Source: Methanobacteriota archaeon (GTDB lineage Archaea > Thermoplasmatota > Poseidoniia > Poseidoniales > Thalassarchaeaceae). Taken from it: 64,000 bases of DNA. The translations under genes were made by a program, and so were the position numbers. Of the stretch, positions 50,214-51,847 are shown in pieces. The notes below the pieces were generated by a model. The model was not told the origin of the DNA and ran no database searches. It saw nothing but the letters and a program-made list of their open reading frames with translations. The DNA lies in NCBI GenBank assembly GCA_011523055.1, contig WTHQ01000039.1, positions 12,263 through 76,262 of the forward strand, written 5' to 3'. The first letter of the stretch is position 1. Every line of letters starts with the position of its first letter.

Positions 50214-50243
50214 CATTTGATTAATTTTATTAATAATTAAATG
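50214..50243. promoter_or_regulatory. Inverted repeat straddling the fumC TATA box (candidate operator)
   Basis: CATTTGATTA-N10-TAATTAAATG (9/10 match) around TTTTATTA at 50225, 30 nt upstream of ATG 50255. Confidence 0.45.
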
Positions 50244-50254
50244 AGTTTAGCCAC

Positions 50255-51847
50255 ATGGCAAAGCATAGAGCAGGGGACCGTAGGATAATTAGCATCAGTA
50301 TACCTGAAGATCTCGCATTGAAACTTGACAGGAAAGTCGGCAGAGGACGTAATGATGGTAGATCGGCCACCATAAGCAAGCTAATCGAACAAGGCCTGAA
50401 CAATACTCCTCCAAAGCCGGTTTCATCTCCACCTAAACCCGTGAATGATAATGGGCACAAGGGACTCCGAGAAGAGGTTGACTCCATCGGCATAGTAAGT
50501 GTGCCAGAGAATGCATACTATGGTGCACAAACTGCTAGGTCCCTTGAAAATTTCAATATCGGAAGGGACATCATGCCAAGATCCATGATCAGGGCTTTTG
50601 GAATCTTGAAAAAATCCACTGCACAAGCTAATGTGAAACTGGGAAATCTAGAGGAGGGTATCGGTGCGTTGATCTGTACAGCGAGTGAGGAGGTTGTTTC
50701 TGGGTCATTGGACTCTCATTTCCCCTTGCGGATCTGGCAAACTGGTTCCGGAACGCAAACGAATATGAATGTAAATGAAGTGATTTCGAACCGTTCAATT
50801 GAAATCGCGGGTGGAATCATTGGAAGTAAGGATCCTGTGCACCCAAACGACCATGTGAACAAGTCACAATCAAGCAACGACACATTCCCCACCGCTATGC
50901 ATATTTCAGCAGCAGAGGAAATTCATCATGACCTATTGCCATCTTTGGCATTACTTCGAAATGAGTTACAAAATAAGCGACAGGAGTTCGATGGGATAGT
51001 CAAAATTGGGAGGACTCATCTCATGGATGCAGTGCCCCTAACTTTGGGCCAGGAATTTTCAGGATACGTGGCTATGTTGGACGCGGATATCTCACGGATT
51101 GAGCGTGCACGAGATGGTTTGTTTGCGCTCGCCATCGGGGGCACGGCAGTTGGCACTGGCCTGAATGCCAAAGTGGGTTTTTCGGATCTGGTATGCGATT
51201 ATATAGCCGAGCATACAGGATTGCCCTTCTATTCAGCTGAGAACAAATTCTCTGCTTTGGCCGGTCATGACGCATTATTGGAGGCTTCAAGCTCGATGAA
51301 TGGATTGGCAACAAGTCTGATGAAGATAGCGAATGATATCAGATGGATGGGTTCTGGACCGAGATCTGGGTTGGGGGAGCTTTCATTGCCAGAAAATGAG
51401 CCAGGTTCTAGCATAATGCCAGGAAAGGTGAATCCGACTCAAGCCGAGGCCATAACCATGGTTGCTTGTCAAATCATGGGCAACCACACCGCGGTCACAA
51501 TAGGGGCTAGCCAAGGCAATTTTGAACTAAATGTGTACAAGCCCATGATCGTACACAATGTCCTACATTCGATTGGTCTGTTGTCAGACTCATGCAGATC
51601 CTTCTCGAAAAGGTGCGTATCTGGTTTGAAGGCTAATGAGAGCAGGATTTCTGATCTAGTGAGTAGATCATTGATGTTGGTGACGGCTCTAAACCCTCAC
51701 ATAGGTTATGACCTGGCTGCCAAAGTTGCGAAACACGCGCATGTTAATGGGACTACTTTACGTGATGCAGCGACAGAACTAGGGATTAATGGAGAAGACT
51801 TCGATGACTGGGTTGACCCCAAGGAAATGACTGGGCCTTCCAGTTGA
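50255..51847 (+). CDS. fumC: Class II fumarate hydratase with N-terminal ribbon-helix-helix domain
   Basis: [41 protein letters not shown]-terminal [15 protein letters not shown]...[14 protein letters not shown] plus Pro-rich linker. Confidence 0.93.

What the first reader, a model, noticed from the sequence alone, without database searches (positions are those of the whole stretch)
50214..51847. Ribbon-helix-helix-fumarase fusion with an operator-like palindrome over its own TATA box
Seen: about 48 N-terminal residues ([20 protein letters not shown]...[14 protein letters not shown]) have the CopG/NikR RHH pattern of alternating beta strand, P-x-x-L helix and RS-x-x-I helix. They are joined in frame through a duplicated PPKPV linker to a complete FumC that has no Met at its usual start. 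The promoter carries CATTTGATTA-N10-TAATTAAATG across the TATA. Established: FumC is a homotetramer, RHH domains bind DNA as dimers, and NikR-type tetramers span two half-sites; PutA is the precedent for an RHH-enzyme autorepressor. Inference: a TCA-cycle trigger enzyme that couples fumarate/malate status to transcription. I know of no description of this fusion.
Basis: partly seen in the sequence, partly recalled or inferred. Interest (0 to 1): 0.75.

Follow-up and report, generated by a model that had tools for sequence, protein, structure and literature searches.

The report
Fumarase fused to a DNA-binding domain
In marine Group II archaea the citric-acid-cycle enzyme fumarase carries a small, strongly conserved DNA-binding domain at its front end, so the enzyme may switch off its own gene, which nobody seems to have described.

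Summary
The ORF 50255-51847 (+) is one 530-aa protein. It has an N-terminal ribbon-helix-helix (RHH) domain (res ~9-49), a proline-rich linker predicted to be disordered (50-70), and a complete class II fumarase (71-530). The fusion is real and old. It occurs in 40 of 61 related genomes (15 of 19 genera) and in all 80 fetched loci, nearly all titled as Poseidoniales or unclassified archaea. The domain was found only on FumC. dN/dS of the N-domain is about 0.06-0.08, so it is translated and a start at GTG 50441 is refuted.

RHH assignment rests on three results. Pfam RHH_1 is the one family matched by all 38 orthologues, though below threshold for the window's copy. A profile search reaches bona fide RHH_1 proteins. 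Fold searches return almost only RHH proteins, at low Z.

What is conserved is a TATA box, TTTATTAA, at -29..-22 from the ATG, which implies a leaderless mRNA. About half of the promoters carry a second TWATTAA heptad 10-11 bp downstream.

Autorepression at the TATA box is the best reading (about 0.5) but untested. Metabolite sensing is speculative. Public records name these proteins only "class II fumarate hydratase".

The parts
50193..50254 (+). 62-nt intergenic promoter region between the stop of the upstream ORF (49698..50192; looks like a cyclophilin by eye, not tested) and the fumC ATG
   Evidence: It contains a 23-nt pure A/T run (50220-50242), which ties for the longest of the 47 A/T runs of 12 nt or more in the 1.45-Mb, 52.5% GC genome.
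50226..50233 (+). TATA box TTTATTAA at -29..-22 from the ATG. The spacing implies a leaderless mRNA (inference).
   Evidence: TTWAWTAW starts at -28..-32 in 94 of 101 distinct fused promoters, and at -29 or -30 in 85 of them. The other 7 carry one-base variants. In the own genome only 2 ORFs of 80 aa or more have TTWAWTAA at this distance.
50227..50236 (.). Perfect 10-bp palindrome TTATTAATAA overlapping the TATA box. Candidate RHH site (inference).
   Evidence: It is unique in the whole genome.
50214..50243 (.).
   Evidence: present, with a chance of about 4% in shuffles. The arms are not conserved in relatives.
50255..50401 (+). RHH domain, res 1-49: basic N-arm [10 protein letters not shown], beta strand about res 9-16, helix 18-28, loop GRGRNDG, GRS turn 35-37, helix 36-49
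50402..50464 (+). Pro/Ser-rich linker, res 50-70, with PPKPV twice. Its sequence varies between relatives while its length is nearly constant.
   Evidence: pLDDT is below 50 at res 50-58 and 65-68. The variable part is 19-22 residues long in 110 orthologues. The sequence is not conserved.
50465..51844 (+). Complete class II fumarase (FumC), res 71-530. The stop codon is 51845-51847.
51404..51433 (+). SS-loop signature [10 protein letters not shown] (res 384-393) of the fumarase/aspartase superfamily. The name of the motif is recalled, not from a call.
   Evidence: Read. All ten residues are invariant in 37 orthologues.

Best explanation
One polypeptide combines a ribbon-helix-helix DNA-binding domain with the cell's only detected fumarase.

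Shown here:
- The N-domain is translated from ATG 50255.
- It is under purifying selection about as strong as on the enzyme.
- It has the RHH strand-helix-helix topology.
- It is joined to a complete FumC by a linker predicted to be disordered.
- The architecture is ancestral or near-ancestral in Poseidoniales and was lost several times.

Inferred:
- The gene is transcribed as a leaderless mRNA from the TATA box TTTATTAA at -29..-22.
- FumC tetramerises, as class II fumarases are known to do. That would bring four RHH chains together as two RHH dimers.
- These dimers bind AT-rich TWATTAA heptads that overlap the TATA box. In about half of the lineages there is a further heptad one helical turn (10-11 bp) downstream.
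- Binding competes with TBP/TFB/RNA polymerase, so the enzyme limits its own synthesis, as PutA does.

Whether fumarate or malate occupancy changes DNA binding is open. I rate that at about 0.2-0.25.
For: Real fusion:
- Full-length matches (query residue 1 onward) in 40 of 61 related genomes, and in 15 of 19 genera.
- All 80 fetched loci carry the N-domain on FumC: 77 are complete, 3 are cut or contain N.
- All 120 listed of the 199 significant proteins of 291-928 aa carry Lyase_1.
- The strong short hits I read, 18 of the 40 best, are fragments of the fusion: most run into the FumC start or break off in unrelated letters.

Translated:
- dN/dS is 0.061 (median) or 0.078 (sum-based) for codons 2-50, against 0.035 or 0.040 for 150 FumC codons, over 230 pairs. 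Over all 5995 pairs pS is 0.82 and pN is 0.20.
- No internal start codon is conserved.

RHH fold:
- 38 of 38 orthologues match Pfam RHH_1 at E <= 0.1, the best at 1.9e-5.
- All 8 distant profile hits that I tested match RHH_1, 6 of them above the gathering score.
- The AF2 models show a strand followed by helices 18-28 and 36-49.
- The VIA-align search of 48,161 chains, which does not lean on Foldseek, lists almost only RHH proteins. These include NikR, PutA's RHH domain 2rbf, Arc, Mnt, AmrZ and ParG, with top Z 4.6. The Foldseek list looks the same.
- The invariant residues are R10, I11, S15, G35, R36 and S37, plus R9 and S13 at 90% or more. By my mapping onto CopG and NikR from memory, these lie on the DNA-facing side of the ribbon and at the N-cap of helix 2. 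The alternating core positions 12 and 14 vary among I, V, L, M and T.

Promoter:
- The TATA box is fixed at -29/-30.
- The 19-nt composite motif matches with 0 mismatches in 13 genomes, each time beside the fumC start listed. In the GC-richer genomes it is the only match.
- A second heptad lies 10-11 nt downstream in 50 of 101 distinct promoters.
- The 15 unfused fumC genes lack the element. Their genomes gave no hit to the N-domain, apart from one weak hit (E 0.0067) away from fumC in G024. So the domain and the promoter were lost together.
- No class I fumarase was found in the own genome, which is 94.85% complete.
Against: - No DNA-binding data exist.
- The window's own N-domain scores 16.6-17.5 bits against Pfam's 20.5.
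- PDB sequence hits have E 0.3-0.7. Fold-match scores are low (no Foldseek E <= 0.001; Z <= 4.6).
- The only promoter element shared by nearly all lineages is a TATA box, which any strong promoter would need.
- The element between TATA and ATG differs between lineages: AT-rich heptads in some, GCC-N6-GGC-like dyads in others, and neither in 36 of 101. The RHH ribbon residues meanwhile stay the same, so no protein-operator co-variation is seen.
- Domain and promoter lie 30 bp apart, so their joint presence or loss is not independent evidence.
- Contigs from RNA libraries cross the intergenic region (X2 50141-50291, X4 50124-50275, X1 from 50218). This could mean read-through from the upstream gene, or DNA in the libraries. 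A leaderless start is therefore not shown.
- The repeated losses show that the domain is dispensable.
Confidence: 0.5

Rival explanations
1. The RHH domain binds DNA, but its targets are other genes (a regulon) or sites not in the fumC promoter. Fumarase would then act as a transcription factor for other metabolic genes.
For: The ribbon residues are invariant while the region between TATA and ATG varies by lineage. The conserved target could therefore lie elsewhere.
Against: The composite promoter motif is found only at fumC in the GC-richer genomes. Extra 2-mismatch matches occur only in AT-rich genomes, at control rates. In the own genome TTATTAATAA is unique. Lineages that lost the domain kept no free-standing copy detectable with the 55-aa query, which is easier to accept for a local function. 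I did not scan the promoters of individual TCA-cycle genes.
Confidence: 0.15
2. The RHH domain tethers fumarase to the chromosome for a role in the DNA-damage response. It would supply fumarate or malate locally, as reported for class II fumarases of yeast, human and Bacillus subtilis.
For: The abstract of PMC5711358, seen in the listing, says B. subtilis fumarase is induced on DNA damage and co-localises with the bacterial DNA. The N-arm is basic ([10 protein letters not shown]). No regulon was found.
Against: As far as I recall, RHH domains are sequence-specific operator binders. The domain is always paired with one special promoter and is lost together with it. Nothing in this locus links it to repair genes.
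Confidence: 0.12
3. The N-domain has the RHH fold but does not bind DNA. It would mediate protein-protein contacts, higher-order assembly, or control of enzyme activity.
For: DNA binding is untested. All sequence and fold scores against known RHH proteins are weak. The helix-1 to helix-2 loop (VGKGRxxG) looks longer than in the classical RHH proteins I recall.
Against: The residues that are invariant are the ones that contact DNA in solved RHH complexes: the ribbon face, the basic arm and the G-x-S turn (mapping recalled). I know of no RHH domain with a purely non-DNA role (recalled).
Confidence: 0.12
4. Annotation artefact. Translation starts downstream (GTG 50441 or later), and the upstream frame is a leader or a separate small gene.
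For: FumC profiles begin at res 71-72. Many lineages have an ATG in the conserved DTMG motif.
Against: dN/dS is about 0.06-0.08 over codons 2-50 with synonymous sites saturated. There is no stop codon between the domains in any of the 116 loci parsed. GTG 50441 is not conserved. The TATA box sits at a fixed 29-30 nt before ATG 50255. The window's genus has I or L in place of the DTMG Met in 9 of 10 loci.
Confidence: 0.02

Closest known systems
PutA (proline utilization A) of E. coli and Salmonella: RHH domain fused to proline dehydrogenase and P5C dehydrogenase, autorepressor of the put genes (recalled)
   Same: An N-terminal RHH domain sits on a catabolic enzyme in one chain. PutA's RHH-DNA complex 2rbf is among the fold matches (Z 3.8, 44 residues aligned). 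The proposed logic, an enzyme repressing its own gene, is the same.
   Different: The enzyme is unrelated (a lyase-fold fumarase with no flavin). PutA switches by redox-driven membrane binding, for which nothing comparable is evident here. The host is an archaeon with a TATA/TBP promoter. No sequence relationship beyond the RHH fold was shown.
NikR: RHH domain plus a tetramerising nickel-binding domain
   Same: The best in-register sequence similarities include H. pylori NikR (E 0.67-0.71, res 13-52 against 14-53), and NikR chains appear in the fold list. The weak paralogue hits in relatives have open frames of 121-157 aa. The picture of two RHH dimers held on a tetrameric ligand-binding core is the same idea (inference).
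   Different: TIGR02793 scores 12 bits against a cut-off of 175. There is no nickel-binding C-domain. The tetramer core would be an enzyme.
Canonical class II fumarase FumC (TIGR00979), including the unfused FumC of other Poseidoniales
   Same: Residues 71-530 form a complete FumC above the trusted cut-off. They are 63-69% identical to the unfused relatives' FumC.
   Different: There are about 70 extra N-terminal residues (RHH plus linker), and a special TATA promoter that the unfused genes lack.
Fumarase in the DNA-damage response (B. subtilis, yeast, human)
   Same: A class II fumarase acting at DNA (abstracts in the listing).
   Different: Those enzymes have no DNA-binding domain of their own. 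No damage link is shown here.

Membership tests
Class II fumarate hydratase (FumC, TIGR00979) | Full-length match to the equivalog model above its curated cut-off | tested here: met
   726.7 bits against 664.75, with res 72-526 matching profile positions 2-457 of 458
Class II fumarate hydratase (FumC, TIGR00979) | Lyase_1 domain plus FumaraseC_C domain | tested here: met
   PF00206 E 1.9e-105 (res 81-409). PF10415 E 2.6e-21 (res 475-527)
Class II fumarate hydratase (FumC, TIGR00979) | GSSxMPxKxN loop signature (motif name recalled) | tested here: met
   [10 protein letters not shown] at res 384-393, invariant in 37 orthologues
Class II fumarate hydratase (FumC, TIGR00979) | Homotetramer with fumarate/malate hydratase activity | not testable with these tools
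   Needs enzyme assay and SEC-MALS
Ribbon-helix-helix superfamily (Pfam RHH_1, CopG/Arc/MetJ-like) | Match to the family model at or above its gathering score | tested here: inconclusive
   The window's domain scores 16.6-17.5 bits against 20.5. All 38 orthologues match RHH_1 at E <= 0.1, the best at 1.9e-5. The profile of the domain finds RHH_1 proteins at library-wide E <= 1e-3, and 6 of the 8 tested are above the gathering score.
Ribbon-helix-helix superfamily (Pfam RHH_1, CopG/Arc/MetJ-like) | Strand-helix-helix topology of about 45 residues | tested here: met
   AF2 model: strands at res 4-6 and 9-11, helices 18-28 and 36-49, mean pLDDT 77. The same helices appear in the full-length model.
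Ribbon-helix-helix superfamily (Pfam RHH_1, CopG/Arc/MetJ-like) | Structural similarity to solved RHH proteins | tested here: met
   The scores are weak, but the lists are nearly pure. VIA-align over 48,161 chains gives top Z 4.6, and almost all of the 50 rows are RHH proteins. Foldseek gives TM 0.5-0.6 with no E <= 0.001.
Ribbon-helix-helix superfamily (Pfam RHH_1, CopG/Arc/MetJ-like) | G-x-S/T/N turn before helix 2 and alternating polar/hydrophobic ribbon (features recalled from the RHH literature) | tested here: met
   G35, R36 and S37 are invariant. The ribbon reads R10 I11 x S13 x S15 x P17.
Ribbon-helix-helix superfamily (Pfam RHH_1, CopG/Arc/MetJ-like) | Intertwined dimer that binds DNA through the two-stranded ribbon | not testable with these tools
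   Needs a structure and EMSA. See Tried and rejected for the one attempt.
NikR (TIGR02793) | Equivalog model match and a C-terminal nickel-binding domain | tested here: not met
   12 bits against a cut-off of 175.45, covering only res 12-51. The C-terminal part is FumC.
Trigger enzyme / PutA-like autorepressor (functional class) | Enzyme and DNA-binding domain in one polypeptide | tested here: met
Trigger enzyme / PutA-like autorepressor (functional class) | Operator in its own promoter | tested here: inconclusive
   A promoter element is conserved and unique in each genome. It cannot be told apart from a strong TATA box, and there is no protein-operator co-variation.
Trigger enzyme / PutA-like autorepressor (functional class) | Substrate-dependent switch between enzyme and regulator roles | not testable with these tools
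   Needs EMSA with and without fumarate or malate

The most novel reading that the evidence does not exclude
RHH-FumC is a metabolite-sensing trigger enzyme of the archaeal TCA cycle. The fumarase tetramer plays the part of NikR's ligand-binding core: occupancy by fumarate or malate repositions the two RHH dimers and releases or tightens binding over the TATA box. Flux through fumarase would then directly set transcription, of its own gene and perhaps of others, in one of the most abundant archaeal groups of the surface ocean.
Probability: 0.2. Interest if true: 0.85.

Novelty: new variant of a known kind. Interest (0 to 1): 0.65.

Why it matters
Enzymes that double as transcription factors are few, and I recall almost none from archaea. 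This would be a new architecture, RHH plus class II fumarase, on a central TCA-cycle step. It is conserved across much of Poseidoniales (MGII), which is uncultured and has almost no experimentally characterised regulators.

It is directly testable with recombinant protein and a 62-bp DNA fragment. It would also give a first defined promoter/operator pair for MGII. The several independent losses offer natural controls. Because class II fumarases have been tied to DNA-damage responses elsewhere, a fumarase with its own DNA-binding domain is interesting for that question as well.

In annotation terms, these proteins are named only "class II fumarate hydratase", and the precomputed Pfam lists miss the domain.

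Tried and rejected
- **RHH dimer prediction.** Complex prediction with two copies of the 58-aa N-domain (alignment A1) gave no verdict (score 0.30, mark 0.42). It is not used either way.
- **Foldseek against the PDB.** No match at E <= 0.001.
- **A free-standing RHH in G040.** The 47-aa hit at G040:C16:14517-14654 ends exactly at the contig end (contig length 14654), and the G040 fumC starts at another contig's end. It is an assembly break, not a separate gene.
- **Other N-terminal fusions on FumC elsewhere in the phylum.** In 201 genomes no match outside the order covers res 1-39. I fetched seven long open frames. In five the extra part is GC-rich junk with no credible domain, and two proved to be ordinary-length frames.
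- **A regulon.** The 19-nt composite motif is found essentially only at fumC. TTWAWTAA at leaderless distance occurs at 2 ORFs in the genome. I did not scan the promoters of individual TCA-cycle genes.
- **Protein-operator co-variation.** None: the ribbon residues are identical across promoter types.
- **Extended dyad symmetry as a recurrent feature.** 18 of 97 promoters have a 10-nt-arm inverted repeat with at most 1 mismatch, against 4.6 expected from mononucleotide shuffles. The centres scatter (-24, -18/-19), the null is lenient for AT-clustered sequence, and the sequences are related. This is weak.
- **Transcript start.** Only contigs of RNA libraries were available, at depth 2-5. They cover the N-domain (50218-50402) and bridge RHH into FumC (50312-50569), but they cannot show a start, and they also cross the intergenic region.
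- **Downstream abundant RNA as RNase P RNA.** Rejected. RNase P RNA is at C37:50428-50725 with 236 bits.
- **Careful ML tree.** It did not finish. I used the quick IQ-TREE result.
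Full report
**1. What is there**

The window holds an ORF at 50255..51847 (+) of 530 aa.
- Residues 72-526 match the class II fumarase equivalog TIGR00979 end to end. The score is 726.7 bits against a cut-off of 664.75, over profile positions 2-457 of 458.
- Pfam finds Lyase_1 (res 81-409, E 1.9e-105) and FumaraseC_C (res 475-527).
- The loop [10 protein letters not shown] (res 384-393) and many other positions are invariant in 37 orthologues.
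- In front of the enzyme lie about 70 extra residues: [48 protein letters not shown], then [22 protein letters not shown].
- PPKPV does occur twice (res 52-56 and 59-63). GTG 50441 is V63.
- No class I fumarase (PF05681) was found in the 94.85%-complete genome. This is the only fumarase detected there.

**2. The fusion is real, translated and widespread**

With the whole protein as query, 40 of 61 related genomes give a match from residue 1.
- One of the 40 (G027) is cut by a contig end, and one (G009) has a C-terminal frameshift.
- With the 55-aa N-domain alone, every strong hit lies inside the fumC frame.
- The single apparent free-standing copy (G040:C16) ends at a contig end and is an assembly break.
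- The fusion is present in 15 of 19 genera across all three families sampled.

Wider collections agree.
- A scan of one genome per GTDB species found 209 loci. The best 80 are titled as Poseidoniales/MGII or as unclassified archaea, apart from two with bacterial names, which I take to be mis-binned.
- In all 80 the domain runs into FumC: 77 are complete and 3 are cut or contain N.
- In the 5.8-billion-protein collection, 199 proteins of 291-928 aa match the N-domain. All 120 listed carry Lyase_1. The only names given are "class II fumarate hydratase" or "fumarate hydratase class II".
- A profile search of 1.84 billion representatives gave 52 hits. Of the 40 best I read 18: all are short fragments that begin with the N-domain, and most run on into the FumC start or break off in unrelated letters.
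- Outside the order, none of the FumC matches in 201 genomes of the phylum covers residues 1-39.

Selection shows the domain is translated.
- In 230 pairs with usable dS, dN/dS for codons 2-50 is 0.061 (median) or 0.078 (sum-based). For 150 FumC codons it is 0.035 or 0.040.
- Over all 5995 pairs pS is 0.82 and pN is 0.20.
- No internal start codon is conserved. The "starts at GTG 50441" alternative is therefore refuted.
- Between relatives the linker varies in sequence but hardly in length (19-22 variable residues in 110 orthologues). It is predicted to be disordered, with pLDDT below 50 at res 50-58 and 65-68.

**3. Is the N-domain an RHH?**

Each line of evidence is weak alone, but all agree.
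- Pfam RHH_1 is the only family matched by all 38 of 38 orthologues (E <= 0.1, best 1.9e-5). The window's own copy is below the gathering score, at 16.6-17.5 bits against 20.5.
- The domain's profile reaches small free-standing proteins at library-wide E <= 1e-3. All 8 that I tested match RHH_1, 6 of them above the gathering score.
- PDB sequence hits are sub-threshold but in register: EndoAI at E 0.34 and H. pylori NikR at E 0.67-0.71.
- AF2 predicts a strand, then helix 18-28, then helix 36-49. Mean pLDDT is 77 for the isolated domain, and the same helices appear in the full-length model.
- Foldseek has no hit at E <= 0.001, but its list is made up of RHH proteins.
- An independent VIA-align search of 48,161 chains returns almost only RHH proteins. 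These include Rv0298, TacA, AmrZ, ArtA, NikR, the PutA RHH-DNA complex 2rbf, Arc, Mnt and ParG. The top Z is 4.6, which is low, as expected for about 45 residues.

The pattern of invariance fits a DNA-binding ribbon.
- R10, I11, S15, G35, R36 and S37 are invariant. R9 and S13 are conserved at 90% or more.
- Positions 12 and 14 vary among hydrophobic residues.
- Mapping these onto the DNA-facing ribbon side and the G-x-S turn is my recollection of CopG, NikR and Arc structures, not a test.

**4. The promoter**

The intergenic region is 62 nt long. It contains a 23-nt pure A/T run, which ties for the longest in a 52.5% GC genome.

- Comparable repeats arise in about 4% of shuffles.
- Its outer arms are not conserved, even in the same genus.

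What is conserved is TTTATTAA at -29..-22.
- 94 of 101 distinct fused promoters have TTWAWTAW starting at -28..-32, and 85 of them at -29 or -30. The other 7 carry one-base variants.
- From general knowledge of archaeal promoters, that spacing is what a TATA box of a leaderless mRNA would show. This is inference.
- It is not the generic promoter of this genome. Upstream of 504 ORF starts I saw only a faint A/T rise at -30..-25.
- Only 2 ORFs in the genome have such an octamer at this distance. TTATTAATAA occurs once in the genome.

Downstream of the TATA box the lineages differ.
- 50 of 101 promoters have a second TWAWTWA heptad 10-11 nt downstream.
- 15 of 101 have one 8-9 nt upstream (14 of them at 9 nt).
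- 10 of 101 have a GC-rich dyad-like element instead of the downstream heptad, and 36 have neither.

The 19-nt composite motif matches with 0 mismatches in 13 genomes, each time beside the fumC start. In the GC-richer genomes it matches nowhere else.

The 15 unfused fumC genes have unrelated upstream sequence. Their genomes show no strong hit to the domain.

**5. History**

A quick ML tree of 54 Poseidoniales FumC cores plus 8 outgroups places the unfused genes nested among the fused ones.
- It needs 5-6 changes of state, at least 3-4 of them forced by well-supported branches.
- Caveats: the careful search did not finish, the root is at the midpoint, and the outgroup branches are long.
- This fits an early gain followed by several losses.

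**6. Mechanism**

My best reading has confidence of about 0.5. The FumC tetramer carries two RHH dimers on flexible tethers. These dimers bind the AT-rich heptads over and next to the TATA box and so repress the gene, as PutA does.

Points for this reading:
- It is a DNA-binding fold with a conserved DNA-facing surface.
- The promoter is unique in each genome and strongly conserved.
- Domain and promoter are lost together, and no copy of the domain is left behind.
- No regulon was detected.

Points against:
- A TATA box is needed anyway.
- No protein-operator co-variation is seen.
- Domain and promoter are physically adjacent, so their joint fate is not independent evidence.
- Contigs from RNA libraries cross the intergenic region.
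- There are no binding data.

Ligand control by fumarate or malate is possible but has no support yet.

The rivals are regulation of other genes (0.15), tethering of fumarase to DNA for a damage response (0.12, suggested by the abstracts listed), and a non-DNA role (0.12). A mis-called start is essentially excluded (0.02).

**7. Novelty**

Four full-text searches found nothing on an RHH-fumarase fusion or on RHH regulators in Poseidoniales.
- One search returned one unrelated review. One search returned two unrelated papers. Searches returned none.
- I read only the listings. Subscription journals are not covered.
- I file this as a new variant of a known kind: an enzyme with a built-in RHH, as in PutA.

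Noticed in passing
window ~51,900-52,640 (directly downstream of fumC): A stretch of about 700 nt has no credible ORF. Contigs of four RNA libraries reach word depths of 12,000-46,000 from about 52,019/52,055 onward, against 2-5 over fumC; the laid stretch ended at 52,100. No Rfam family matches at gathering scores or at E <= 1. The stretch is single-copy. It is 80-85% identical over about 750 nt in 9 genomes of the same genus (2 more match only in part). It is conserved in blocks in 7 further genera of the family, next to fumC where I looked, and was not found by BLAST in the other two families. RNase P RNA lies elsewhere. A GC hairpin sits at the depth boundary (about 52,005-52,040). This may be an abundant, undescribed structured RNA of MGIIb-like archaea. 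Its strand and ends were not determined.
   Followed up: partly
own genome, contig C30:172,440-172,500 (outside the window): The intergenic region between two divergently oriented long ORFs holds tandem TAATTAACGT-like units with an 11-nt period: TAATTAACGTTTTATTAACGTATAATTAACGT. It could be a binding array for some regulator. It is unrelated to fumC by position.
   Followed up: no
L044, L046-L051 (unfused fumC of genus g15), about 45-10 nt before the ATG: Relatives that lack the RHH domain share a conserved upstream block, ccgtacgaacggtgaagaagtaccgcttccacgg. It is in frame with fumC but precedes its Met. It may be a different regulatory element that replaced the RHH/TATA arrangement.
   Followed up: no
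own genome, contig C17:1861-2307 (+) and upstream 1816-1862: A 148-aa open frame has an RHH-like N-terminus (IITFSADKEFASKLESI...NRSRFLRDAA) and is about the size of NikR. It is preceded by a 23-nt A/T run that ties with the fumC promoter's as the longest in the genome. Pfam RHH_1 also hits C36:48528-48638 at 20.5 bits.
   Followed up: no
L022 (G032), upstream of fumC: The promoter block (tacaataatatttattaattactaatt) is duplicated in tandem about 37 nt apart. This is a natural promoter duplication in one lineage.
   Followed up: no
window 44644..48573 (-): A 1309-aa ORF looks by eye like the large subunit of archaeal DNA polymerase D. That would be consistent with a euryarchaeal host. It was not tested.
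   Followed up: no
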